IMG/VR virus record: IMGVR_UViG_3300010885_044958
Coordinates: 70,237-134,236 of that record
Strand: one strand, 5' to 3'
DNA: 64,000 nucleotides
Source: a virus
Under the pieces are notes generated by a model. It was not told the origin of the DNA and did no database searches. It worked only from the letters and a program-made list of their open reading frames with translations. The translations under genes and the position numbers were made by a program. Each line of letters opens with the position of its first letter. The stretch's first letter is position 1. Positions 8,550 through 55,874 of the stretch are shown here, in pieces.

Positions 8550-8792
8550 CTAAATCTTGATTATTAAACCATTTACCAAAACTACTTGTGTATTTCTTTT
8601 TTTTTGCAAATCCCCCCATACACAAAGATTTAATATAATTGTACCCAATGTATTTATTATTGGCACAAACCAAAAAAATCTTGCACCACATGCAGATTTA
8701 AGCCAAATGTCGTGTTTTGCACACAACCTAGCTGCATTTCTACATCCAAATATACTTAGAATATAAATACTTATTAAAATTATTATTATCAT
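8550..8792 (-). CDS. small membrane protein
   Basis: two hydrophobic segments; WFVPIINT motif. Confidence 0.6.
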   Translation of the reverse strand: MIIIILISIYILSIFGCRNAARLCAKHDIWLKSACGARFFWFVPIINTLGTIILNLCVWGDLQKKRNTQVVLVNGLIIKI

Positions 8793-8977
8793 TCTACTAA
8801 TTTTTGTATTAATTCAAAATATTTTTCTACAGCTATTTCTATTAGCATAAATTCACATTGCCCAGTAAAAATCCAAAAAATGCAACAGGCAATTACACCC
8901 ACACACATAATAGGACAAATAAAAGGAACAAATATTACAGCTAATATAACTGCTGTAAGTCTTTTTAGTATTTTCAT
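8789..8977 (-). CDS. small membrane protein
   Basis: long hydrophobic stretch; ATGA overlap with the next gene. Confidence 0.6.
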   Translation of the reverse strand: MKILKRLTAVILAVIFVPFICPIMCVGVIACCIFWIFTGQCEFMLIEIAVEKYFELIQKLVE

Positions 8978-9039
8978 AAATTATTTTTTAAAAACGCTTG
9001 TTCTTACAATGAATCTACAAACAACCTATAGTATTTTTA

Positions 9040-9228
9040 TTATATTCTAGATGCAAGCACAGAAATTTCCCGTGTAATACGTGCTCTGTCTAAATCTGAC
9101 AATAATACAAATTCATCAGCTTTACATTCTTTAGTTACTTTTGTATTAGATTCTAATTGTGCCTTCAAAAAATTTAAGGTTCGCACTCTACGTTTTCTGG
9201 CTGATGCCTGTTTGCTCCATGTTTTCAT
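9040..9228 (-). CDS. hypothetical protein
   Basis: 62-aa basic ORF. Confidence 0.65.
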   Translation of the reverse strand: MKTWSKQASARKRRVRTLNFLKAQLESNTKVTKECKADEFVLLSDLDRARITREISVLASRI

Positions 9229-9280
9229 ACACTTCTTAGCTTTTAATTGTTATATAATAATTGTTTGTAATACATTTTTA

Positions 9281-9340
9281 AAAAACTGCATGTGAGCTGT
9301 CTAAGACATTTATCCTATCAATAAGGCCACTCACATACAG
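9281..9340 (-). terminator. terminator-like hairpin with a large loop
   Basis: CTGTATGTGAG/CTCACATGCAG (G.U on minus) plus T-run. Confidence 0.55.
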
Positions 9341-9350
9341 AACTCAATCT

Positions 9351-9572
9351 TTAAGCTTTTACTAACTCCTTCAAATCTGCCAAACTGTGATAGATTTTTG
9401 TTACTTTTTTGTTTTGTTGTGTGCGCTTTGAGATTGCTACTTTTACCCTATCATTAGGATGCGTAGCAGGTAAAAACTTGCGTCCAATTTTTGGAAAATT
9501 AGAGGCATCTTCTGTTAGTGGAACTTCTTTTACTTCTCCACCAATTACGAATACTGTTGGTTTCTTGTTCAT
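9351..9572 (-). CDS. hypothetical protein
   Basis: 73 aa, preceded by AAAAACTCAAATAT-ATG. Confidence 0.7.
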   Translation of the reverse strand: MNKKPTVFVIGGEVKEVPLTEDASNFPKIGRKFLPATHPNDRVKVAISKRTQQNKKVTKIYHSLADLKELVKA

Positions 9573-9591
9573 ATATTTGAGTTTTTAAATA

Positions 9592-9828
9592 TTATAAATT
9601 TATATCAAGCACATTTATATTAGTAAATACCTTTTTTTTATCTAAAATTACAAATTTGTATTTATCTGTAATCTTATTAATTCTTTTTTTAATATCTTCT
9701 ATTGTTTTTGCATCATTTTTTATAGTGTAAAGGCACATACTAAAATTCTTAGAGTTATAATGCCCCAGCTCATCATCAATAAATTCATTTACTAATGCAT
9801 TAAATATTTTATTATTTGTGTTTGGCAT
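9592..9828 (-). CDS. hypothetical protein
   Basis: 78-aa ORF. Confidence 0.55.
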   Translation of the reverse strand: MPNTNNKIFNALVNEFIDDELGHYNSKNFSMCLYTIKNDAKTIEDIKKRINKITDKYKFVILDKKKVFTNINVLDINL

Positions 9829-10307
9829 TTCTAATAATTTTATTAGATACTAAAGCTTTTATTATATATTGTGCATCTGCGCCTGGAAATTTTTTATTTA
9901 TTTCAGTTGAATGCCATTTTCCTTTTAAATTTGCAAAATAATTTCCTGCTATTAGTGTTTCATTACTCATATTCTTTTATTTAAATTCTTAGTGTATAGA
10001 TTTAGATTGATTTGCGTTTTAATTTTTTAAAATAAGCAACCTGCTTTGATGAATAGGCTGGTAAATAAATCAAGTTAAGGCAAAGCCTATAGCCTACAAA
10101 ACTCTGCCTTAACTATGTCTTACCTGCTCAGCACGAATGAGTTTTGGCTAATACCAGGAGTACCAAGTTAAGAAGACCTTTGTATTATTTAAAAGTAATA
10201 ATTGCAATCTATTGAAAAAATATATTATAATTATTATTATACGTGCAGAATATGCTACGATAATGTCATCCCAACTATATTGACTAATTTCCTTGTTGGT
10301 TGGGCAT

Positions 10308-10400
10308 AAAAAACCCGTTGAGTGTTCGCCTTGGAAGCTTTCTCAACGGGTCAGATATATATTTGACTATAAATCCCTTATTTGCGTTTCCAAGGCGAAC
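10308..10400 (-). ncRNA. candidate sRNA/leader whose 5' end pairs with its terminator loop
   Basis: TATATTTT box at 10412-10405; +1 GTTCGCCTTGGAA is complementary (13/13) to TTCCAAGGCGAAC inside the CCCGTTGAG/CTCAACGGG+T6 hairpin. Confidence 0.6.
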
Positions 10401-10549
10401 AAATAAAATATACAACTAATTTTTGAAATAAAAAAATGCAACAAAATAGGTGGCTTGAGTTCTTCGTAGAATTATGATATTATCTCCTTAGTCTCTAAGC
10501 AACATCCACCACAGCTCTAGATTACATTGTCTATTTTATTACAATTTCT

Positions 10550-10631
10550 TTTAAAATGCGCCTAGAAAATTAGAAAAAATCCCAGGCATTTATTTAAGTG
10601 AAACTGTATTTACAGATACAGTATCTTTTCT
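10550..10631 (-). ncRNA. candidate ~80-nt sRNA with its own promoter and terminator
   Basis: TTTG-N20-TAAATTTG promoter (10667-10636); ACTGTAT/ATACAGT hairpin, then a GCCTGGGA/TCTAGGC hairpin plus Ts; no ORF. Confidence 0.45.
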
Positions 10632-10776
10632 GATGCAAATTTACACCAAAATAATTTATAAACCAAATTTATTTATCCTATATTCCAAGGACTATTAGAA
10701 TCTTTTCTTACAAACCAAGATGCTTTCTTTGGTTTTCTTATTAATAATTTCTTTAATATATTATATATTTTGTGCA

Positions 10777-11007
10777 TTATTGTACAAATTCAATTGTATA
10801 ATCTTTTTGTAAATGTATTATTACGTCATGCCCAATAACAATATTTCTACCTGTTGGATATGTTACAGTATATTGCACTTTTTTATTTAAAATTTCTGGT
10901 TCAAGATGCATGTTATCACCAACGATATTAGCCATTATAGCATTTACAGTTCCGTTATCAATTGTTGCAATTTTTACTTTTTCTTTATTTAAGATTAATA
11001 TTTTCAT
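10777..11007 (-). CDS. hypothetical protein
   Basis: 76-aa ORF with an A-rich start region. Confidence 0.65.
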   Translation of the reverse strand: MKILILNKEKVKIATIDNGTVNAIMANIVGDNMHLEPEILNKKVQYTVTYPTGRNIVIGHDVIIHLQKDYTIEFVQ

Positions 11008-11304
11008 ATTTTATTTTTTAAAATGCATTTATTTCTTTATTTCAAGACTTTTAATTAATATAAATAGAACAATAAACCCATTAATACGTGGAATTCGCTT
11101 TTTAAATCGCTTATTACTGCTCTATTTATATTAATCTAATTATTTATATATCAGTTGCATCCTATAAAATTTTTGATTTCGCAAATTCCTTTAAACTAAA
11201 GTATTCTTTAAAATACCACATAGGAAACCTAAAACCTTGCTTTGCTAATAATCTAATACTAGTCTTTATTGTAACATTATTTAATGTATCCATGAGTTTT
11301 GATT

Positions 11305-11688
11305 TTATACTTGTTTTGAAATATTTTCTTTTATAATATGTATTGGTATTTTTGCAAGTGTATAATAATCATCCTCTGAAAACATTGCATATGCACCTTC
11401 ATAATTAGTTGCGTCATATTTATTTAAAATTAACGATATACACTTACCATTAGATTTCAAATTAAGAAATTGATAATCTTCCAAAGAACCATCTCTTCTA
11501 CATTCTTCTTTAATTCGTTTGTCAAATTCTAATTCTAAAGAAATACTGCCTTCTTTTATTTGTTCTGAAATATATTTTTCTAATAATTCAATATTTTCAG
11601 GAGCATTTAATTCTAAATTATACTTTATTAATTCACCAATAACTATTCTTGGCTTCTTTTTTATACCTAATAATGCTAACAATCCCAT
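11305..11688 (-). CDS. hypothetical protein
   Basis: 127 aa, preceded by AAAACTCAAAAA-ATG. Confidence 0.75.
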   Translation of the reverse strand: MGLLALLGIKKKPRIVIGELIKYNLELNAPENIELLEKYISEQIKEGSISLELEFDKRIKEECRRDGSLEDYQFLNLKSNGKCISLILNKYDATNYEGAYAMFSEDDYYTLAKIPIHIIKENISKQV

Positions 11689-11731
11689 TTTTTGAGTTTT
11701 AAAATGTGTTTATATAATAATTAATTAAAAA

Positions 11732-11826
11732 TAGATAATAGCCAAGATCGTATAAGAGTTGAACCTATATCTTTACACAAAATGTAACACTTTAACCGTT
11801 AAGCTAACCACCTTAGCTATTATCTA
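11732..11826 (-). ncRNA. tRNA-like element (pseudo-tRNA) within an extended stem
   Basis: D-arm GCTT-AACGGTTA-AAGT, TTACA-TTTTG-TGTAA arm, ATAGG-TTCAACT-CTTAT T-arm; the acceptor is extended by about 13 further base pairs. Confidence 0.55.
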
Positions 11827-11840
11827 AGAACTTATAAAAA

Positions 11841-11995
11841 TAGATAAAATATACATTTATTTTATTAAAATGCGTTTTTCGCCTCATTTTATCGAAGGCT
11901 GTGCAATTAGCTATTCTGCACTCTATGTCTCAATTCATCCATCTATTACGTAATTCGGGAAACTGTGAGAAACAGTAAAATGTATATTTTATCTA
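11841..11995. repeat. 18-bp perfect inverted repeat enclosing ~120 nt of non-coding sequence
   Basis: TAGATAAAATATACATTT ... AAATGTATATTTTATCTA. Confidence 0.8.
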
Positions 11996-12047
11996 ATGTG
12001 TTGCATTTTTTCAAAAATTTCTGCGCAAATACCTATACACCAAGACT

Positions 12048-12857
12048 TTATTTACTAGCTTTTATTCTACTATCTACCTGTACAGCATGTGAGAGTTTGT
12101 ATTCTGCTAACCATTCTCGAATTTTATCTGCCCACCAACTTTCTTCATACGTATCAGGGTAACTATCAGTTTTACCTATACCTTGTAAAATTATTTCAAA
12201 AATTTGTGTATCTGTCCATCCTGTACTACATACTACAGGTAGATTCTTTGCTGCACTATCATACGCTGCCATCCAAAAATCATGTGCTTTACTATCAGAT
12301 ACTTTATCAGCTTCTTCTCTATTCAGCTTTGCATATTCACGTTCTGCTATTTCTCCCACACTACCTGTTGGTTGTACAGACTGAGACTGTATATCGGCAC
12401 CATGATTATCTCTCTTGTAATATTCCAAGAGTTGTGTACAATTGTGCAGTCCTCTTTGTGAATACGTTTGCATAAAGTCAATCATATCTTTATCTGACCA
12501 ACTACCCGATTTTTGCTGAGATTGTATAGCTGCATTATATCCTGCACGACACCCTTTCATGAATATGTTGTTATCGTACTCTTCTGTTTGATGACTATCA
12601 AAATCAGGTGTATCGGGTTTCCCATATCCATAACTTGTTGCCAATGTTGCCAATATCTTCTCTACCTCTTCCTGAGTAAGTCTAGATACTGGTGTATGTG
12701 CTACAGTTTTTGATTTTGCAAATAACTGTTCTAACTCCGCAAATGATTCAGCTATACACGCTCTACCAGAATTATAGTAATATTTACCGTATTGACTGAT
12801 TCCTTTACTTTGCATCCACTGTAACATATCCTGTGGTATTGTCTGTTGCTGTTCCAT
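12048..12857 (-). CDS. hypothetical mosaic protein
   Basis: 269 aa; own TAAATTTG box at 12895-12888; repeated W(S/T)D.. modules. Confidence 0.75.
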   Translation of the reverse strand: MEQQQTIPQDMLQWMQSKGISQYGKYYYNSGRACIAESFAELEQLFAKSKTVAHTPVSRLTQEEVEKILATLATSYGYGKPDTPDFDSHQTEEYDNNIFMKGCRAGYNAAIQSQQKSGSWSDKDMIDFMQTYSQRGLHNCTQLLEYYKRDNHGADIQSQSVQPTGSVGEIAEREYAKLNREEADKVSDSKAHDFWMAAYDSAAKNLPVVCSTGWTDTQIFEIILQGIGKTDSYPDTYEESWWADKIREWLAEYKLSHAVQVDSRIKASK

Positions 12858-12934
12858 ATTCTATTTGTTTGTATTAAGTAAATATTGCAAATTTACAAAA
12901 ATTTTTTAAACTTAGCGCATTTAAAGCTTGGCAA

Positions 12935-13093
12935 TTATTCTTCATTTACCCACATAATAAATTCTAACATTTTTGCAGTTAATCCTGTTATTATATACAT
13001 AGGTAAATATTGCTTATTTCCTAAAATTGCAAACGCAACTGACCATAAAACAACAAGCATACATATTATTCTTGCAATTGTATATTTTTTCAT
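12935..13093 (-). CDS. small membrane protein (52 aa, not in ORF track)
   Basis: MKKYTIARIICMLVVLWSVAFAILGNKQYLPMYIITGLTAKMLEFIMWVNEE; preceded by AAAAAACTCAAAA-ATG. Confidence 0.6.
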   Translation of the reverse strand: MKKYTIARIICMLVVLWSVAFAILGNKQYLPMYIITGLTAKMLEFIMWVNEE

Positions 13094-13197
13094 TTTTGAG
13101 TTTTTTAAGATTAAATAATAATTTTCAATTTTTAAGACGCAATATAATACAAAAATAAGTTTAGCCTTTGATATAATCTCCAGCTAAACTCAAATTC

Positions 13198-13563
13198 TTA
13201 TTCACCAATAGATTCTTCAAAGTCTTCAAAATAACCTCTATTACCATTTCTATCCATTCCATAATACATTCCTTGCGGTGCGTTTGAATAAATTTCATTA
13301 GAAGCCTCTTCATAAGACCAAGGAGTTTCATCATATTGCCCACCTTCTGGCAATTTTTCAAGCCCGGCAATTTCTTCAAGAATATCATCTATTTCAGCTT
13401 GCTGTTCATCCCTATACCAACCATATTCAAGATTACTCTGATAATTATCAGATACATCTTCAATATCTTCAGCCGTGCAATGTGAAGGCTTATTATCTAC
13501 AAGCTCTTGTTTTATTTTAAGAACTTGCAATTTCAATTCGTCAATTTTTTCAAGATTTGTCAT
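13198..13563 (-). CDS. acidic hypothetical protein
   Basis: 121 aa, very D/E-rich; AAAACTCAAAAAAC upstream. Confidence 0.75.
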   Translation of the reverse strand: MTNLEKIDELKLQVLKIKQELVDNKPSHCTAEDIEDVSDNYQSNLEYGWYRDEQQAEIDDILEEIAGLEKLPEGGQYDETPWSYEEASNEIYSNAPQGMYYGMDRNGNRGYFEDFEESIGE

Positions 13564-14055
13564 AATAAATAGTTTTTTGAGTTTTAAATGTGAAAATTTT
13601 TTAACAAATGCGCAATATATTATACTAACAAATCACTTCAATAAGTCAGTATTGCCTCTCCTGTATAATAAATAAAATATAATTGCCTTAACCTAGCAAT
13701 CTTGTAAATGCAAATAGGTGTGAAATAATCACAATTGATAGTTATACTGGAATATCAGCCTTTGATCCGTAACAGCGTTATTCGGTGTCATGCTCGCGTT
13801 CTTATTGCAATCAGAATAGTTCTTTTGAATAGTTAGAACTAACAACATCTATTTGTGAATGAAAAAATGTACAATTTTGCAGTAAAATTGATACCCACAT
13901 AAAGCAAAGGTTTAGTTACAGATACCTATAAACTGCTATATTACTTGAAGTCAAGGTTATGATCCTTATTTCTCGAACTCATTGGCATTGCACCAATCTT
14001 AGCTTATATAGAACTATTGTAAAATAAAATTATAAAAATAGCTCGGCAATCAATT

Positions 14056-14102
14056 AAAAAGAGCTAACGCAAACCAATATTACTATCAGTCTACGTTAAC
14101 TC
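14056..14102 (-). terminator. intrinsic terminator
   Basis: 19-bp stem (with G.U on minus), GTAA loop, T5. Confidence 0.75.
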
Positions 14103-14109
14103 AAAGAGA

Positions 14110-14349
14110 TTAATCAACAAGTTTATCACCTGTTGTGCGATATTTCTTTACTATATCACGAGTAATAGTAAAAGAACATACTTCGATAGTATATCCTTCT
14201 GCTTTAAAATGATGTAGTTCACATTCAAAAGGTAATTCAGGTATACCTGTTGTTTGTCCTGGATAAATAGTTGCCTCACTATTGTTGACAACATCTTCTT
14301 CTACTATTTGTCCTTCTGCATCTTTGATGGCATAATAAACTGGTATCAT
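14110..14349 (-). CDS. hypothetical protein
   Basis: start reassigned to MIPVYYAIKD (14349), downstream of AAACTCAAAAAAC. Confidence 0.65.
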   Translation of the reverse strand: MIPVYYAIKDAEGQIVEEDVVNNSEATIYPGQTTGIPELPFECELHHFKAEGYTIEVCSFTITRDIVKKYRTTGDKLVD

Positions 14350-14444
14350 AATTGAAATGTTTTTTGAGTTTGAATATAAAATATAATTATATTTTCGTCC
14401 AAGTCTGATCACAAACTAATTTTAAAGTCTCCTTGGCTGACTGA

Positions 14445-14476
14445 TTTGGAATATTGAGTTTATTTATGTATATTTT
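14445..14476 (+). promoter_or_regulatory. promoter TTTG-N20-TATATTTT
   Basis: exact spacing shared with several other copies. Confidence 0.7.
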
Positions 14477-14496
14477 ATTATACTAAACTCAATTAT

Positions 14497-15096
14497 ATGG
14501 TTTATTTTATCGGTAATAAAGAAAAACAATTAGTAAAGATAGGTAAAGCTAATCAACCCAAAAGAAGAATCGAAGAAATACAAGTAGGGTTTCCTTATCA
14601 ACTTGAGATATTTTTGATAATAGAAGGCAATGAAGCAATTGAAAAAACTCTTCACAATAAGTTTAAAAATAAACACATTAGAGGAGAATGGTTTATATTA
14701 GATGAAGATATATTATCATTTATTGACAATCCTCAAATAGAAATTAATACAATATATCAAGACTCTTTAGATCATATGGTTAGATATAGTAAAGAAACAG
14801 AAAACAAAATTGAACTATTATATTCTAAATCTATGTCTAATATAGAAATAGCTAATCAATTAAATATTAATATTTCTAAAGTGAGAAAAATTATTAAACA
14901 AAGAAAATTAGCTAGTAAATATAGAATATATAAAGAATATAAAAACAAATTAACATCGCAATATAATAAAGATAGAAATATTAGAAAAAAATACAGAGAA
15001 TTATATAGAAAATCTCTAATAACTAAAGAACAATTAGATAATATACTTCTTCAATATCCCACTAAAGATAAAAGAGGTAGAAAACCTAATGAATAA
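14497..15096 (+). CDS. T5orf172/MUG113-like GIY-YIG protein with C-terminal HTH
   Basis: MVYFIG...VKIGKA..P..R..EIQ.G.P..L...E..LH.KF....IRGEWF; 'MSNIEIANQLNI..SKV'. Confidence 0.85.
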   Translation: MVYFIGNKEKQLVKIGKANQPKRRIEEIQVGFPYQLEIFLIIEGNEAIEKTLHNKFKNKHIRGEWFILDEDILSFIDNPQIEINTIYQDSLDHMVRYSKETENKIELLYSKSMSNIEIANQLNINISKVRKIIKQRKLASKYRIYKEYKNKLTSQYNKDRNIRKKYRELYRKSLITKEQLDNILLQYPTKDKRGRKPNE

Positions 15097-49156: not shown

Positions 49157-50338
49157 ATGCCAACAATAATTCCAGTTTGGGTTCCAAATACGAAAATAGA
49201 TTTACCTAGTAATCTAATTTATACAGATTCTAACGGTAATCCGGTATATACATTATATCCATATGATTATTTAGTTTTGGTTGGGCAAAAAACAAATACA
49301 TTAATTACGCAATATACTGCACTTAATTCAGAAGTAGCTTTTATAAATAGTGAAATTAATACATTATTTATTTTAACATCTGGGATTACTACACCTTATA
49401 CAACTCCAACAATAGCCCCACAATGTGTAGGAAATGGTTGTAGTGGATGTACAGCACAGCCAATTGATATAGTTTTAACAGAACTTTTAAATTCTTATTG
49501 CGCCTTATATTCAATTTTAGGTGGTACTGGTTCACTTGCAAACTCCATAACAAAAGAATGTGTCAATCTAAATAGTTCTCCTTCTTTTGCAACTCCCGGA
49601 ACCTCTATGTCTGCTATTACGGGCTGGATTTCAAATCCAACAACTATTGCAGATACAATAACAGATATATGGTTAACTATTTGCGATGCTCGCGCAGGAA
49701 TAACAAACGCATTAGCAGCAATAACACCAACATGTTCTCAAGTAATAATTAATTTTGCAGCAAATGTTGTGAGTTATTCTGCAGGTATTAATGTTTATTT
49801 TGACGGGTATACTTTTATTCCTACAGGTTTTACTGATGGGAAGTCTATAATTAAAGTAACTGATAGTGCAGGTAATATATATCAGACTTCAATAAATGTA
49901 GTAACGCAATCAACAAGTACTTCTCCATTTAATATTCCTCTAACTGGAACAACTTTAATTCCAACTTCAGCTTATACTATTACTCTCACTTCAATAGTGA
50001 CAAATAGTACACTTGGTCTTACGTGTAACAAAACAACTTTACAGTCTGTAACAAATAGCATTTCTTATTGCCCAGTTGTAAATGCAGTTGCGTCAGGACA
50101 AACAGCAATAGGGTTTACATTAATACCTTATATTACTTCTAATGTAACTTATCGTGTAGATCTATATTACGCCACAGGTGGAACAAGTCAAGCAAATACA
50201 TCGTTTGTCAACCCTTCAGGCGCACAAACATATACATTCTCAGGATTAAGCGCAAATACAGCATACAATATAGTTGTAACAACTACAGTATCTGGTGTAG
50301 CACCATATGTATGTGCAGCAATTGCAATAACTAGCTAA
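49157..50338 (+). CDS. Thr/Ser-rich structural protein with C-terminal FN3-like domain
   Basis: 'YTFSGLSANTAYNIVV' FN3 signature. Confidence 0.7.
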   Translation: MPTIIPVWVPNTKIDLPSNLIYTDSNGNPVYTLYPYDYLVLVGQKTNTLITQYTALNSEVAFINSEINTLFILTSGITTPYTTPTIAPQCVGNGCSGCTAQPIDIVLTELLNSYCALYSILGGTGSLANSITKECVNLNSSPSFATPGTSMSAITGWISNPTTIADTITDIWLTICDARAGITNALAAITPTCSQVIINFAANVVSYSAGINVYFDGYTFIPTGFTDGKSIIKVTDSAGNIYQTSINVVTQSTSTSPFNIPLTGTTLIPTSAYTITLTSIVTNSTLGLTCNKTTLQSVTNSISYCPVVNAVASGQTAIGFTLIPYITSNVTYRVDLYYATGGTSQANTSFVNPSGAQTYTFSGLSANTAYNIVVTTTVSGVAPYVCAAIAITS

Positions 50339-50349
50339 ATAAATAAATA

Positions 50350-51795
50350 ATGTCTTGTAGTAGATGCCATCAAAATAATTGTTCTTGCCCCAATGTAAAT
50401 TGTGGATGTCCTCCTAATTATGCGTTTGATCCGGCAACTAATACTTGTCAAGGAACTACTTGTGAGGCAACATTACCAACAGCTTGTATATTTTCTACTA
50501 CTTATTTAGATTGTGTTAAGCTTGCAGTAAATACTGATCTGCAAACAGTTCTTAGCGCAATGGATGCAAAGATATGTGAGTGTGGATCATGTTCAGGTGG
50601 GACGCAACCATTGCCTTTATTTTATGTAGATTCTAACAATACAGAAACTGGCGATGGCTCTGTAGGAAATCCTTATAAAACAATAGATTTAGTTTGTACA
50701 GCAGTAGTTGGAACTGGTACAACTGCCTCACCAGAATTTACAAACGCAACAGTTTATGTAATGGGAGGTACTTATAGTACAGCTCAAAACATATATATAC
50801 CAAGTACTAACTGGACATTCTTTAATGGTGCAAATGTTACATTTACTGGGCAGGGAACTTATTTTATAGATAATGCAGCAATTGCAGACGGTGCTGCAGA
50901 TTTTAAAGTTTCTGGTTGGATTAATTTTAAAACTAGTACAGGAGGATTTCTTAGAAATAGTGCAGGTTATACATCTAATTCCATAAATAAAGCAATTACA
51001 ATAGAGGCTTTTAAAATAATTGGAAATACAACTGGCACAGCACAACCATTAATAAAACAAGCCACTAGTAATACTGGTACTGGAACAGGTAGAAATTCTA
51101 CTATAATTAAAATGCAAGGTCCGGCATCAGTAATCGCATCTGCATCTCAGCATTGTATTGGTTATACAGGATCAACATTTATACTTAATTTGGATGGTGG
51201 TTCGATATATTATGGTGTAGATTTAATTGGGAGTATTCCTGGTAGTTCTTCTGGAAATATTCTCAATTATAATTGTAATGATACTCTTAATCCTGGCGCA
51301 GCATATGTAGTAATACAAAATGGTTTGGTAGGAGCTAGTTATGCTACTGATATGTTTTATGTTGCTGGAAAATATAACACTTTAAGATTAGATAATCTTG
51401 AAACAGTTAATGTATCAAATAGTAACCAACCTATTACATTTTTAAATATAGCTACAACAAACGCAAATCTCGCATCTGGTGCAATAATTTATGAGTTTTT
51501 ATTAAAGGATGTATATATCATTCCTTCATGTTTTAATAGTGTCGGGGGTGTAGTTATTGTATATACTGCGGGTGGAAATTCATTTAACTACTTAGAGATG
51601 CAAAATTGTGTTTTATACACTGGAGCAACAATTCAATTTGCAACTATTATATTAGGTGGATCTGTAAATAGCGGGCTAGTAGCTGGATATAATGTAATTA
51701 ACGGTAGAACAAATATATATAATTTACCAACTTCTGCTGCTGGATTAGCAACAGGAACTCTTTGGAAAAATGGTGCAGTAATAAATATTGTTTAA
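50350..51795 (+). CDS. tailspike-like protein (Cys-rich N-terminus, beta-helix-like body)
   Basis: 'FYVD.....GDGS..NPYKTI' beta-helix entry motif; C-terminal 'LPTSA.GL..G.LW.NG'. Confidence 0.65.
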   Translation: MSCSRCHQNNCSCPNVNCGCPPNYAFDPATNTCQGTTCEATLPTACIFSTTYLDCVKLAVNTDLQTVLSAMDAKICECGSCSGGTQPLPLFYVDSNNTETGDGSVGNPYKTIDLVCTAVVGTGTTASPEFTNATVYVMGGTYSTAQNIYIPSTNWTFFNGANVTFTGQGTYFIDNAAIADGAADFKVSGWINFKTSTGGFLRNSAGYTSNSINKAITIEAFKIIGNTTGTAQPLIKQATSNTGTGTGRNSTIIKMQGPASVIASASQHCIGYTGSTFILNLDGGSIYYGVDLIGSIPGSSSGNILNYNCNDTLNPGAAYVVIQNGLVGASYATDMFYVAGKYNTLRLDNLETVNVSNSNQPITFLNIATTNANLASGAIIYEFLLKDVYIIPSCFNSVGGVVIVYTAGGNSFNYLEMQNCVLYTGATIQFATIILGGSVNSGLVAGYNVINGRTNIYNLPTSAAGLATGTLWKNGAVINIV

Positions 51796-51801
51796 TATAA
51801 A

Positions 51802-51862
51802 ATTTGAGGTTTATTGGTTTATCCTCTAATAGCCTGCTTATTCCTAGGCGGGCTTTACTTTT
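51802..51862 (+). ncRNA. candidate sRNA B (loop UUUAUUGGUUUAU) plus intrinsic terminator
   Basis: GAGG/CCTC stem around TTTATTGGTTTAT, then AGCCTGCTTA-TTCC-TAGGCGGGCT plus Ts. Confidence 0.55.
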
Positions 51863-51871
51863 TAAACTAAA

Positions 51872-51903
51872 TTTGGGTAAGAACTAGAAATAGATTACCT
51901 TTG
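51872..51903 (+). promoter_or_regulatory. promoter TTTG-N20-TACCTTTG
   Basis: canonical Bacteroidota -33/-7 boxes. Confidence 0.75.
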
Positions 51904-51923
51904 TGTTAACTAAAACTTTAAAA

Positions 51924-53180
51924 ATGAGTACAATTTTTGAAAATGTGTTGCGTGCTATGTCCCACAAAAAAAGTGACGCTGCAACCGCTGAAAAGTTAGG
52001 AATGTCACTTAGGGAGTATCAGTCTGTTAAAAATGAAATTAGACAGATGCAAAAAGAAGAAGATGAAAATGAATCTCTTGTAGATTTAACAAAAGAAATG
52101 TTTACAACAGGTTACACAGAAGATTTAGAAAAAGGTCGTGCAGAATACAAAATACAAACATCCTTTGAACCAAGAACTGCAGAAGAAATAGAGTCTCTAA
52201 TTAAATTAGATAAAACCAAATGGAAACTTGCTAGATATTCAGTTTGGAATGGTGGTAGGGAAGATGTATGGTTAACTAGTGCTAAAGTAGTTGCGATTGC
52301 AGATGAATCAAATCCAACACAGCAATTTGAGGAATTTTTAAAGACCTATAATTCAAGTTACAAACCTTTAAATTTTACAGTTAACCGTACTGATGAAGGT
52401 GGAGATGACAATAGAAATTGTGCCCTAATCCCAATGCCTGATTTTCATTTGGATAAATTAACAGTAACTGGTACTCCAATTAAAGAACATATAGAAAATT
52501 ATAATAGAATTTTAGATGCATTAATATGGCGAGCATCAAAGTCGTTTAATTTAGATGAAATTATATTTTTAGTGGGTAATGATTTTTTCCATACAGATTC
52601 TATACATAATACTACCACTAAAGGAACTCCACTATTTGTTAGTACTGAATGGGATAACGCTTATGAATTAGGATTTGATTTAATGGTAAATAGTATTATG
52701 AAACTGAAGAAGTTTTGTAATAAACTAAACATTATTTTAATACCTGGTAATCACAGTGTTACAAAAGAATTCTATTTAGCTCACGCATTGGAAGTATATT
52801 TTAAACCTGATAAAAATATAGTATTTAATCGTACTAAAGATGATCAAAAAATATACAAATATGGTGAAACATTACTTTGTTTTTCTCACGGAAACAACGT
52901 AAATGATAAATTACCTTTAGTATTTGCAACCCAATTTTATAAAGAATGGGGTACTTGTAGGTATCATGAGATAATTTTAGGGGATAAACATTATAATAGT
53001 GAGAAATTATTTAGATCTCAAAATGAAGCTAATGGTGTTAGAATGCGGATAATTCCATCATTATCTGGTACAGATCAGTGGCATAAAGACAATTTATTTG
53101 TTGGTGCAATTCAGGCAGGAATTTGTCTTATCTATAATGAAAAATATGGTAAGTGCGCCGAAATAGAAGAAAGGCTATAA
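51924..53180 (+). CDS. calcineurin-like metallophosphoesterase with N-terminal HTH-like region
   Basis: PDFH, GNDFFH, PGNH, FSHG, GDKH motifs; start probably MSTIFEN. Confidence 0.88.
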   Translation: MSTIFENVLRAMSHKKSDAATAEKLGMSLREYQSVKNEIRQMQKEEDENESLVDLTKEMFTTGYTEDLEKGRAEYKIQTSFEPRTAEEIESLIKLDKTKWKLARYSVWNGGREDVWLTSAKVVAIADESNPTQQFEEFLKTYNSSYKPLNFTVNRTDEGGDDNRNCALIPMPDFHLDKLTVTGTPIKEHIENYNRILDALIWRASKSFNLDEIIFLVGNDFFHTDSIHNTTTKGTPLFVSTEWDNAYELGFDLMVNSIMKLKKFCNKLNIILIPGNHSVTKEFYLAHALEVYFKPDKNIVFNRTKDDQKIYKYGETLLCFSHGNNVNDKLPLVFATQFYKEWGTCRYHEIILGDKHYNSEKLFRSQNEANGVRMRIIPSLSGTDQWHKDNLFVGAIQAGICLIYNEKYGKCAEIEERL

Positions 53181-53202
53181 TAGTTAAACTTTTTAGGTTT
53201 AA

Positions 53203-53234
53203 TTTGTAAATCCCCTAAGTTTTTCGTATATTTT
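53203..53234 (+). promoter_or_regulatory. promoter TTTG-N20-TATATTTT (leaderless)
   Basis: ATG lies 12 nt from the box start. Confidence 0.7.
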
Positions 53235-53238
53235 ATAT

Positions 53239-53814
53239 ATGCGATCTACGTACAAAAAACCAAATGTAAAAGGACCACGTTTTAGAAATAAAGTAAAAAG
53301 AGCGTTAGATCAGGACTTTTTTGTTAAATTAACAAAGATGTATCCTGATTTAACTATTTCTAGACAAGATGTTAGAAAAATTCTTAATACATTCCATGCA
53401 ATTTGCATTAAAGAAATTGCAGAAACCAGAGATGGAATAGAACTATTAGAACAACTCGGCAATATAATAGTAGGTAAATTTAAGACTCAAGAAACCTGGA
53501 AAGGTAATGTTCCTAAATCCATACAATACGAAACTAAGATAGATTACTTAAACTGGGAACAAAATGAATGGATTTGCAAAATATTCTATTCTAATTTTGC
53601 TTCTAAATACAGATTCAGAAATGCAGCACTTTGGGCATTTGAACCTGTAAAATCTATGAAAAAAGTAGTCTCCAAAGCCTTTACTAAAGACCCCTATAAA
53701 TATGTTTTTGCAGATCACTACAACAGAATAAATAAAGTATTCAGACTTGCAAAGAAGGCATTAAACGAAAAATTAAAAGCACAACAAAACGATGAGCCAA
53801 CTCCTTTACAGTGA
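53239..53814 (+). CDS. IHF-like protein (crAss tail-module type)
   Basis: 'VRKIL..F......I...RDGIEL.E.LG.I.V.K'; synteny. Confidence 0.65.
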   Translation: MRSTYKKPNVKGPRFRNKVKRALDQDFFVKLTKMYPDLTISRQDVRKILNTFHAICIKEIAETRDGIELLEQLGNIIVGKFKTQETWKGNVPKSIQYETKIDYLNWEQNEWICKIFYSNFASKYRFRNAALWAFEPVKSMKKVVSKAFTKDPYKYVFADHYNRINKVFRLAKKALNEKLKAQQNDEPTPLQ

Positions 53815-55496: not shown

Positions 55497-55514
55497 TCTT
55501 TTAAATTTAAACCA

Positions 55515-55874
55515 ATGTATCTATCTACAACAATACCAATTAAGATATATGATACAAAGGTGCAATTTATCATAACAAAAGATATTACTAAGATTTTCAA
55601 TAGAATTAATTGTTATCATAAAACAGGAGTTTCTTGGAAGAAAAATGAGTCTGCCGCAGGTTGTACAATTTTATGTAGTATGGCAAAATACTATATATTA
55701 ATTAATCAAGATTATCTTTCGTATAATACGATTTGTCATGAGATATATCATTGCACACATAATCTTGCAATAGATCGCGGAATACATGAAGAAGAATCAC
55801 AAGCATGGATTCAAGGAATTATTGCCCAAGAAATTTTTAATTTTCTACGTAAAAAAAATTTAGAAATTGCCTAA
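55515..55874 (+). CDS. minimal zincin-like metalloprotease (HExxH)
   Basis: TICHEIYH...HEEESQAW. Confidence 0.7.
   Translation: MYLSTTIPIKIYDTKVQFIITKDITKIFNRINCYHKTGVSWKKNESAAGCTILCSMAKYYILINQDYLSYNTICHEIYHCTHNLAIDRGIHEEESQAWIQGIIAQEIFNFLRKKNLEIA

What the first reader, a model, noticed from the sequence alone, without database searches (positions are those of the whole stretch)
51802..51862. sRNA B: a second hairpin whose loop is antisense to a different start-region motif in structural genes
Seen: right after the tailspike stop codon, a GAGG-UUUAUUGGUUUAU-CCUC hairpin precedes a terminator. Its complement AAACCAATAA(A) lies immediately upstream of the starts at 39559 (motif 39546-55), 42648 (42637-47) and 46458 (46444-53); TAAACCAAT overlaps the start at 55515. 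The MCP start lacks it. The AGG-[U-rich loop]-CCU architecture is the same as in sRNA A, yet each loop matches the motif of its own genome arm. Two parallel cases make coincidence less likely. Inference: a paired guide-loop/start-motif system that tunes stoichiometry or timing of gene classes.
Basis: partly seen in the sequence, partly recalled or inferred. Interest (0 to 1): 0.88.

Follow-up and report, generated by a model that had tools for sequence, protein, structure and literature searches.

The report
Conserved anti-leader RNA hairpin, crAss-like phage
Just behind the last tail gene, this uncultured crAss-like phage and most of its relatives keep a small RNA hairpin whose loop mirrors a short tag in front of several virion genes, so it probably controls their translation by RNA pairing.

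Summary
After the tail-gene stop codon lies GAGG-UUUAUUGGUUUAU-CCUC (51807-51827), then a 10-bp terminator (51831-51854). The loop's complement AAACCAATAA sits 1-4 nt before the ATGs at 39559, 42648 and 46458 (5 exact sites, 0.69 expected).

The window's 4-bp stem looks weak. But 73 of 80 related loci carry a hairpin at the same place with the same loop core UU[A/G]UUGGUUU and 35 different stems. All 9 stem pairs show compensatory changes. No Rfam family matches.

The AAACCAA box recurs in leaders of the same virion-gene families. Three hairpin-less genomes on separate tree branches lack it in both orthologous leaders.

Best reading (0.55): a 3'UTR anti-leader loop that pairs with 5' leaders and tunes translation in a host group that does not use Shine-Dalgarno sequences.

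- Not shown: any transcript, the pairing itself, or its direction of effect.
- No own promoter was found, so a separate sRNA gene is unsupported.
- My systematic test for fine loop/box covariation was inconclusive.
- Two isolated boxes occur without a hairpin.

This scan has reported the same element in at least seven other genomes, plus a parallel case here.

The parts
50350..51795 (+). Last gene of the virion (tail) module, 481 aa; its 3'UTR carries the hairpin
   Evidence: ORF list. No PHROG or PDB match, so 'tailspike' is inferred from position only.
51807..51827 (+). Anti-leader hairpin: stem GAGG/CCUC (51807-10 / 51824-27), loop UUUAUUGGUUUAU (51811-23)
   Evidence: Weakest member of covariance model R1 (17.4 bits). 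Homologous hairpins occur in 73 of 80 related loci. Stem covariation is shown.
51831..51864 (+). Intrinsic terminator: 10-bp stem, 4-nt loop, then a U-rich tail
   Evidence: A G+C-rich hairpin plus T-run follows the conserved hairpin in the relatives.
51872..51903 (+). Bacteroidetes-type promoter-like pair (TTTG, 20 nt, TACCTTTG) for the exonuclease gene
   Evidence: Read. The same layout appears in relatives. The consensus TTTG / TAnnTTTG is recalled, not tested.
51924..53180 (+). DNA-repair exonuclease gene (418 aa), the conserved downstream neighbour
   Evidence: phrog_704, E 2.3e-52. 134 homologues found. The loop lies a median of 169 nt upstream of its start in relatives.
39546..39555 (+). 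Leader box AAACCAATAA, 3 nt before the ATG at 39559
   Evidence: Duplex with the loop region is -10.7 kcal/mol.
39559..40809 (+). Box-bearing gene between portal and MCP (416 aa, unknown; scaffold-like by position only)
   Evidence: In its orthologue family (alignment A6), 6 of 6 hairpin-bearing loci have AAACCA in the leader.
42637..42647 (+). Leader box AAACCAATAAA, directly before the ATG at 42648
   Evidence: Duplex is -11.2 kcal/mol.
42648..43724 (+). Box-bearing gene after MCP (358 aa, unknown)
   Evidence: Family A5; 15 of 21 members match phrog_16383, a family with no function named. 18 of 19 hairpin-bearing loci have AAACCA in its leader.
46444..46453 (+). Leader box AAACCAATAA, 4 nt before the ATG at 46458
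   Evidence: Duplex is -10.1 kcal/mol.
46458..46616 (+). Box-bearing small Cys-rich ORF (52 aa)
   Evidence: The L012 orthologue (50 aa) carries an exact box 1 nt before its ATG.
55508..55516 (+). Possible fourth target: TAAACCAAT overlapping the ATG at 55515 (119-aa gene, phrog_1365)
   Evidence: Duplex is -10.0 kcal/mol. The 9-mer count alone is not above chance.

Best explanation
This is a conserved structured RNA element in the 3'UTR of the last tail gene, immediately before the terminator that ends the virion-gene transcripts.

The stem only has to pair. The single-stranded loop UU(A/G)UUGGUUU is the functional part. It is the antisense of an A/C-rich box, AAACCAA(U)AA, that lies 1-25 nt upstream of the start codons of a subset of virion genes: the gene after the portal, the gene after the MCP, a small Cys-rich ORF and tail-fibre genes. 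The MCP itself lacks the box.

Most likely the loop base-pairs with these leaders. It could do so as part of full-length late mRNA or as a stable 3' fragment of hairpin plus terminator. The pairing covers the unstructured A-rich region that Bacteroidia ribosomes need for initiation, and so lowers or times the translation of those genes.

Shown here: the element, its conservation, stem covariation, the complementarity, and joint presence or absence of hairpin and box.

Inferred: that the RNA exists and accumulates, that the pairing occurs, and that the effect is repression rather than activation or stabilisation.
For: 1. The window's exact box occurs 5 times against 0.69 expected. In the whole 134-kb record, 4 of 5 + strand copies lie 4 nt or less before an ATG.
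2. 73 of 80 related loci (exonuclease identity 34-58%) hold a hairpin plus terminator at the same place. These give 36 distinct hairpins and 35 distinct stems.
3. I aligned 22 of the 36 distinct hairpins, those with 12-nt loops, which give a gap-free alignment.
   - 9 of 9 pairs show changes on both sides.
   - 90.4% of cells are paired, against 32-51% when the partner is slid.
   - The covariation score is 0.676 against 0.20 in shuffles (0 of 500 as high).
   - 11 of 12 loop columns are invariant and the twelfth is A or G.
4. In 55 non-redundant loci (855 genes), the exact box lies within -35..-1 of 13 genes and within one mismatch of 50. The reverse complement gives 1 and 2. 200 permuted motifs average 1.1 and 15.6. 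ACCAATAA is seen 17 times against 0.85 expected.
5. The boxes recur in orthologous families. 18 of 19 leaders of the post-MCP gene and 6 of 6 of the post-portal gene have AAACCA in hairpin-bearing loci.
6. Three hairpin-less genomes (two 100% complete, one 79%) have no R1 match followed by a terminator anywhere.
   - They lack AAACCA in both orthologous leaders, 0 of 3 and 0 of 3.
   - On the exonuclease tree each sits next to a hairpin- and box-bearing relative, and the hairpin label needs at least 4 changes.
7. In the 71-nt 3' fragment the loop is unpaired. Duplexes with the four boxed leaders are -10.0 to -11.2 kcal/mol, against -5.1 to -6.9 for three unboxed virion leaders. The four boxed leaders fold at -1.3 to 0 kcal/mol on their own.
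8. Precedent: Bacteroidia initiate on upstream adenines without SD (PMC6847099 and PMC13000457, abstracts in the search listing). The Bacteroides sRNA GibS represses by pairing at such start regions (PMC7366714, passages).
Against: - No RNA data: no RNA run was listed for this phage.
- The window's own stem has only 4 pairs. It is absent from the MFE of a longer stretch and is the lowest-scoring match of the model (E 5.2 over all loci; E 0.48 in its own genome).
- Across relatives only a 7-8-nt core (AAACCAA) is shared between loop and boxes.
- A systematic test of seven loop classes against each genome's leaders did not show that a genome's own loop class pairs best. The matching indels I saw (L055, L173, L135, L113, and L052 against L057) are therefore anecdotes.
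- Two exact boxes occur without a hairpin: L053 at 6412, in a complete genome, and L013 at 3906.
- At gene level the enrichment between hairpin-bearing and hairpin-less loci is only borderline: 53 of 678 against 2 of 94, Fisher p 0.05.
- 17 of 48 hairpin-bearing loci, many of them short fragments, show no AAACCAA leader.
- A/C-rich leaders may be favoured in these hosts for translation alone.
Confidence: 0.55

Rival explanations
1. The hairpin is a protein-recognised RNA signal at the operon end. It could be a boxB-like antitermination or termination-efficiency element, a processing or stability determinant, or a binding site for S1 or an RNA chaperone. Under this reading its likeness to the complement of the leader boxes has no pairing function.
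For: The anatomy fits protein-bound hairpins: an invariant loop, a free-to-vary stem, and a fixed position 0-12 nt before a terminator. The loop is U-rich. Fine loop/box covariation was not demonstrated. Some hairpin-bearing loci show no boxed leader (17 of 48).
Against: It does not explain a 10-11-nt exact complementarity to a motif that is itself enriched and conserved in leaders. It also does not explain why three separate hairpin-less lineages lack the box in two orthologous leaders.
Confidence: 0.2
2. The link is at the DNA level. The box and its inverted copy are sites for one phage or host DNA-binding protein, for example a late-gene regulator acting near transcription starts. Alternatively the hairpin works as single-stranded DNA in replication or packaging.
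For: A double-stranded site reads the same in either orientation, so joint loss would follow from loss of the protein. Boxes lie in short 5' regions downstream of promoter-like sequences, not in tiny intercistronic gaps as I first assumed.
Against: Compensatory stem changes (9 of 9 pairs) mean selection on a single strand, not on a duplex site. The element lies in transcribed 3'UTR just before a terminator. Box distance to the ATG is small (1-25 nt) while distance to upstream signals varies. Most loops have G where boxes have T, which is tolerated in RNA as G.U but is a different duplex site.
Confidence: 0.1
3. The box is a translation enhancer that pairs with an exposed rRNA segment or recruits S1. 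The 3'UTR loop is a mimic or decoy of that ribosomal partner, competing for the leaders or titrating them late in infection.
For: The hosts are SD-blind and rely on A-rich leaders. Boxes mark genes that are probably highly expressed. The MCP uses a different A-rich leader.
Against: The host and its rRNA are unknown, and no rRNA complementarity was tested. Box-to-ATG spacing is variable (1-25 nt). This is a variant of the pairing model rather than a full alternative.
Confidence: 0.08
4. Chance: a weak 4-bp hairpin in an A/T-rich spacer that happens to contain the complement of an A-rich leader word.
For: In the window alone, the reverse complement of the box occurs once. By my own base-composition estimate (not a tool result) about 0.26 copies are expected on that strand. 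With one mismatch the motif is not enriched. The stem is marginal.
Against: The same hairpin with the same loop is at the same place in 73 of 80 related loci, with covarying stems.
Confidence: 0.02

Closest known systems
icaR mRNA 3'UTR-5'UTR pairing in Staphylococcus aureus (PMC3868564; abstract and outline read)
   Same: A short motif in a bacterial 3'UTR is complementary to the ribosome-binding region. In icaR the pairing blocks the initiation complex.
   Different: icaR acts on its own single mRNA through an anti-SD UCCCC motif and creates an RNase III substrate. Here the motif sits in a hairpin loop and matches non-SD A/C-rich leaders of several genes. The host group ignores SD, and nothing has been shown experimentally.
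c4 antisense RNA of phages P1 and P7 (review PMC12197685, passages read; primary paper Citron and Schuster 1990 seen only as a reference)
   Same: A phage-encoded RNA whose loop-exposed sequences pair around a ribosome-binding site of a phage mRNA to block translation.
   Different: c4 controls one antirepressor operon in temperate enterobacterial phages. No Rfam C4 match was listed in 51500-52200 at E up to 10. Here the element is in the 3'UTR of a late structural operon and would act on several virion genes.
GibS, a trans-acting sRNA of Bacteroides thetaiotaomicron (PMC7366714, passages read)
   Same: It shows that in SD-less Bacteroidetes an RNA pairing at the translation initiation region represses the target. 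It is A/U-rich and has a single-stranded seed.
   Different: GibS is a host intergenic sRNA with its own promoter and a long unstructured 5' seed. The phage element has no detectable promoter, and its 10-12-nt seed is held in a hairpin loop.
3'UTR-derived base-pairing sRNAs of enterobacteria (CpxQ, SroC, DapZ type; recalled, not looked up here)
   Same: A regulator released from the 3' end of an mRNA that shares its terminator, so its level follows the parent operon.
   Different: Those depend on Hfq and RNase E processing. No processing site or chaperone is known here.

Membership tests
Any Rfam 15 family (including C4 antisense RNA) | Covariance-model match at or above the family's gathering score | tested here: not met
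   8 matches at E up to 10 in 51500-52200, all far below gathering (best SAM-V, 24.4 against 41 bits). None covers the hairpin meaningfully and C4 is not listed.
Conserved anti-leader hairpin of environmental crAss-like phages (model R1, built here) | Hairpin with loop core UU[A/G]UUGGUUU closed by a stem | tested here: met
   The stem has only 4 pairs, and the R1 score is 17.4 bits, the lowest of 73 matches.
Conserved anti-leader hairpin of environmental crAss-like phages (model R1, built here) | Position: 10-29 nt after the stop of the last tail-module gene, directly followed by an intrinsic terminator, upstream of the exonuclease gene | tested here: met
   In the window the loop starts 16 nt after the stop and 113 nt before the exonuclease ATG. 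Relatives: 45 of 48 loci at 10-29 nt, median 169 nt to the exonuclease start.
Conserved anti-leader hairpin of environmental crAss-like phages (model R1, built here) | Complementary AAACCAA box in leaders of virion genes of the same genome | tested here: met
   The window has three exact 10-11-nt boxes 1-4 nt before ATGs, plus one 9-nt box overlapping an ATG.
Trans-acting base-pairing sRNA (independent gene) | Own promoter and a discrete transcript | tested here: not met
   No TAnnTTTG within 100 nt upstream in the window or in 45 of 48 loci. The motif is recalled. Whether a transcript exists could not be tested.
3'UTR-borne or 3'UTR-derived antisense regulator | Regulator sequence lies between a stop codon and the mRNA's terminator | tested here: met
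3'UTR-borne or 3'UTR-derived antisense regulator | Demonstrated RNA-RNA pairing and an effect on the target's translation or stability | not testable with these tools
   Only predicted duplex energies are available.

The most novel reading that the evidence does not exclude
These phages run a small RNA code for translation in SD-blind hosts. Each gene class carries its own leader tag: AAACTCAAAA on the early left arm and AAACCAATAA on virion genes. Each tag has one mirror loop placed in a 3'UTR next to a terminator. Operon output would then feed back, through RNA-RNA pairing, on the translation of a whole class of phage genes. The hairpin studied here would be the master anti-leader of the virion class.
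Probability: 0.3. Interest if true: 0.85.

Novelty: new variant of a known kind. Interest (0 to 1): 0.72.

Why it matters
crAss-like phages are among the most abundant viruses of Bacteroidota, and almost nothing is known about their post-transcriptional control. Their hosts do not use Shine-Dalgarno pairing, so how a phage sets different protein yields from its late genes is an open question.

A single conserved loop that mirrors the leaders of a defined set of virion genes gives a concrete, testable mechanism. It also gives a new structured-RNA family that is absent from Rfam. The covariance model can be used to annotate hundreds of uncultured genomes and to mark the end of the structural operon.

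Tried and rejected
Relatives and cultured phages
- Megablast of 50300-53300 against deposited phages found no match.
- tblastn with a relative's exonuclease found only 31-33% identical, non-crAss-like phages, so there is no cultured relative to lean on.
- A first single-protein scan of viral contigs found only 26-44% identical loci. It was replaced by the alignment query.

RNA evidence
- No RNA holder was listed, so I did not use read laying.

Target-gene function
- PHROG and PDB searches of the boxed genes and the tail gene gave nothing usable.

Ideas I dropped
- I supposed the box before the post-MCP gene lies in a spacer too short for a promoter. One search showed spacers of mostly 100-200 nt with a terminator-like hairpin, so I dropped that argument against a DNA-level role.
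- Loop-class against box-class test, first version: allowing G.U everywhere was uninformative.
- Second version, with strict pairing at GG, was inconclusive. A genome's own class was best or tied in only some variant genomes.
- The A-run length table was also weak: nU1 genomes 2 of 39 genes against 4 of 718.
- R1 matches in hairpin-less genomes G002 and G003 lack terminators and lie in coding-like context, so I rejected them as copies.

Technical slips
- Alignment A2 held a row with wrong coordinates for L021 and unaligned stems. I replaced it with A3.
- The careful tree did not finish, so the quick IQ-TREE tree was used. L016, a truncated locus, was wrongly labelled as hairpin-bearing there.
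- One search missed L018 because of a mis-estimated gene start. I added it by eye.

Literature
- Three searches found no paper describing this hairpin or box.
- In the Drobysheva et al. preprint, the passages found for five search terms report host-RNAP promoters for middle and late genes; 'hairpin' and 'terminator' do not occur in its text. Its supplementary file of promoter sites could not be seen and may bear on where the boxes lie relative to transcription starts.

Full report
**What is in the window.**
- The 481-aa last gene of the virion module ends with TAA at 51793-51795.
- Twelve bases later comes GAGG (51807-51810), the 13-nt loop TTTATTGGTTTAT (51811-51823) and CCTC (51824-51827).
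- A strong intrinsic terminator follows at 51831-51854, with 10 pairs and then TTACTTTTT.
- Next is a promoter-like pair: TTTG at 51872-51875, then 20 nt, then TACCTTTG at 51896-51903. This was read, and the Bacteroidetes consensus is recalled.
- Then comes the DNA-repair exonuclease gene, ATG 51924 (phrog_704, E 2.3e-52).
- The window is the last 64 kb of a 134,236-bp virus record estimated 73% complete. It holds portal (36665-39409) and MCP (40849-42534) genes of crAss-like type.

**Is the match more than chance in this window?**
- Exact AAACCAATAA occurs five times on both strands against 0.69 expected, and 0 of 100 shuffles reach five.
- Four copies are on the + strand. Three lie 1-4 nt before the ATGs at 39559, 42648 and 46458, and one is inside an ORF at 21066. 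The only - strand copy is the loop.
- In the whole record there is a fifth + strand copy, 4 nt before the ATG of a 142-aa ORF outside the window.
- With one mismatch allowed the motif is not enriched (24 against 19.4). The 9-mer at 55508 alone is not above chance either.
- The 4-bp stem is not in the MFE of a 91-nt stretch. In the 71-nt 3' fragment it is paired with probability about 0.98, and UUGGUU is 0.96-0.99 unpaired.
- Taken alone, the window would leave the case open.

**Relatives settle that the element is real.**
- I aligned 26 exonuclease homologues and used the alignment to fetch 80 loci from viral contigs, with 34-58% identity in the best segment.
- 72 of the 80 have a hairpin within 900 nt upstream of the exonuclease gene. 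Each has a loop containing T-rich-GGTTT and is followed by a T-run. L018 was missed by a mis-estimated start and added, giving 73 of 80.
- The 7 without are L010, L013, L014, L019, L053, L088, and L016, which is truncated at that point.
- The 72 comprise 36 distinct hairpins with 35 distinct stems of 3-12 pairs. The commonest loop is TTTGTTGGTTTT (43 loci).
- I aligned the 22 of 36 distinct hairpins that have 12-nt loops, which give a gap-free alignment. Eleven of twelve loop columns are invariant and the twelfth is A or G.
- All 9 stem pairs have changes on both sides. 90.4% of cells pair, against 32-51% when the partner is slid by 1-3 columns. The covariation score is 0.676 against 0.20 in shuffles, with 0 of 500 as high.
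- A covariance model (R1) finds 73 matches at E up to 10 over 89 sources, essentially one per locus at the same place. The window's copy is the lowest (17.4 bits) but is the best match in its own genome.
- No Rfam family reaches threshold.
- 21 further non-redundant loci from metagenomes added more copies and loop variants.

**It is a 3'UTR element, not a gene with its own promoter.**
- In 45 of 48 non-redundant hairpin-bearing loci the loop starts 10-29 nt after the stop codon of the upstream ORF. The C-termini of those ORFs are unrelated.
- A TAnnTTTG word lies within 100 nt upstream in only 3 of 48 loci.
- In hairpin-less relatives such as L010 and L088 the terminator remains but the hairpin is gone.

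**The box is conserved too.**
- In 55 non-redundant loci (855 called genes) the exact box lies within 35 nt upstream of 13 starts, and within one mismatch of 50.
- Its reverse complement gives 1 and 2. 200 permutations of the same letters average 1.1 and 15.6.
- ACCAATAA, TAAAACCA and AACCAATA are among the most enriched leader 8-mers, for example 17 seen against 0.85 expected.
- Of 31 exact AAACCAA[CT]AA sites on the + strand of the loci and the window, 21 lie 1-15 nt before an ATG that opens an ORF of at least 40 aa.
- The boxes sit before the same gene families. 18 of 19 leaders of the post-MCP gene family (window 42648) have AAACCA, as do 6 of 6 of the post-portal family (window 39559). 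They also precede tail-fibre genes with a shared N-terminus and a 50-aa Cys-rich ORF (window 46458).
- MCP leaders never have it: 0 of 24 contain AAACC or AACCA.
- Across relatives only the core AAACCAA is constant, and the 3' part of the box varies.

**Joint loss.**
- Whole-record searches with R1 found nothing in G004 (L053, 100% complete) or G005 (L088, 79% complete). G003 (L014, 100% complete) gave only weak, terminator-less matches.
- In all three, the leaders of both orthologous genes lack AAACCA while keeping the AACTACAT-like motif next to the ATG. That is 0 of 3 and 0 of 3.
- By my hand calculation the chance is 4/1540 and 1/84 if the genomes were independent.
- On a quick maximum-likelihood tree of 55 exonucleases, the hairpin-less rows sit apart. 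L053 is next to L055, L088 next to L056/L052/L057, and L014 next to L011.
- The label needs 5 changes, at least 4 of them forced by well-supported branches. The losses are therefore repeated events, not one.

**Results against the link.**
- An exact box stands before a 359-aa Cys-rich gene in hairpin-less L053, and before a 961-aa gene in L013, whose record is 66% complete.
- Gene-level enrichment is borderline: 53 of 678 against 2 of 94, p 0.05.
- 17 of 48 hairpin-bearing loci, many of them short, show no AAACCAA leader.

**Fine covariation.**
- Variant loops exist: TTTGTTTGGTTTT (L011, L123), TTTATGGTTT (L055, L135, L173), TTTTTTGGTTT (L113), TTTAGTTGGTTTT (L052) and TTTTGATTGGTTTT (L027).
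- Some leaders in these genomes match the change.
  - AAAATCATAAT occurs in L055 and L173, and ACCATAAAAA in L135, where the loop is one U shorter.
  - AAACCAAAA occurs in L113.
  - The L052/L057 pair also matches its own loops better (9 and 11 contiguous pairs with the own loop against 7 and 8 with the other's, my hand alignment).
- A systematic comparison of seven loop classes against all leaders of each genome did not show that the genome's own class is best. I count these matches as anecdotes.
- Earlier notes of this scan claim that loop and tags change together. I could not reproduce that as a statistic.

**Mechanism.**
- Duplexes of the window's loop region with the four boxed leaders are -10.0 to -11.2 kcal/mol, against -5.1 to -6.9 for the MCP, 44456 and 50350 leaders. 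The four boxed leaders are unstructured on their own, with MFE -1.3 to 0.
- Hosts of crAss-like phages are Bacteroidota. Bacteroidia ribosomes ignore SD and use upstream adenines and lack of structure (PMC6847099 and PMC13000457, abstracts in the listing).
- In Bacteroides, the sRNA GibS represses by pairing at such start regions (PMC7366714, passages).
- Middle and late genes of the crAss-like phage phi14:2 are transcribed by host RNA polymerase (preprint 10.1101/2020.03.07.982082, passages). So the hairpin would be made with the late messages.
- I therefore favour an anti-leader loop carried by every transcript that ends at this terminator, or by a stable 3' fragment. It would pair with boxed leaders and reduce or time their translation while the MCP escapes. 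The sign of the effect is inference.

**Rivals.**
- A protein-bound hairpin of boxB type or a stability element explains the anatomy but not the complementarity or the joint loss.
- A DNA-level site explains the joint loss but not the compensatory stem changes.
- A ribosome-decoy variant cannot be tested without the host.

**Comparison and novelty.**
- The closest known systems are icaR 3'UTR-5'UTR pairing (PMC3868564), the phage P1/P7 c4 RNA (PMC12197685), GibS, and 3'UTR-derived sRNAs (recalled).
- It is not a member of any Rfam family.
- Three literature searches found no description.
- After my own analysis I found that this scan had already reported the same element in at least seven other genomes, and a parallel 'sRNA A' case in this genome. 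Those are unchecked AI notes and are not counted as evidence.
- For sRNA A, I confirmed only that its box AAACTCAAAA occurs 5 times, all on the - strand, against 1.04 expected, and I read its sequence.
- The AGG/CCU stem likeness between A and B is not a conserved feature of B.

Noticed in passing
L-loci, e.g. L075:540-573, L087, L028; G003-G005 leaders (L095-L100): A second leader motif, AACTACAT (or AACTAAAT), sits directly against the ATG of the post-portal and post-MCP genes in most relatives. It is kept even in genomes that lost the hairpin and the AAACCAA box. The window's own leaders do not have it.
   Followed up: partly
window 14470-14496, 19065-19091, 42610-42630 (approximate; also near 53225): A promoter-like word, TATATTTTATTATA(G), recurs upstream of the starts at 14497, 19092 and 42648.
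   Followed up: no
relatives, leaders of the ~187-aa 'MADLKLDILV' gene family (e.g. L020:5058-5097, L024, L029): A conserved 13-nt word, ATCCTCTGGCATA, lies about 12 nt upstream of the ATG. It gives the top-ranked enriched leader 8-mers. Its function is unknown.
   Followed up: no
relatives, exonuclease leaders (e.g. L029:9920-9949, L023, L046): The exonuclease gene just downstream of the hairpin often carries TTTTAACCAA(A/T)AAAA in its own leader. Read-through transcripts would then hold both the loop and a partial box in cis.
   Followed up: no
G000:C1:34319-34328 (35.9 kb before the window): A fifth exact AAACCAATAA box lies 4 nt before the ATG of a 142-aa ORF outside the virion module.
   Followed up: no
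window 6295-14371, - strand: The left-arm box AAACTCAAAA occurs 5 times, all on the - strand before small early genes, against 1.04 expected. Its mirror lies in the loop at about 7370-7385.
   Followed up: partly
window 42535-42600: A terminator-like hairpin (AACAGGGTA...TATCCTGTT, then a T-rich tail) follows the MCP stop. The post-MCP gene therefore probably has its own promoter. The same layout appears in relatives.
   Followed up: no
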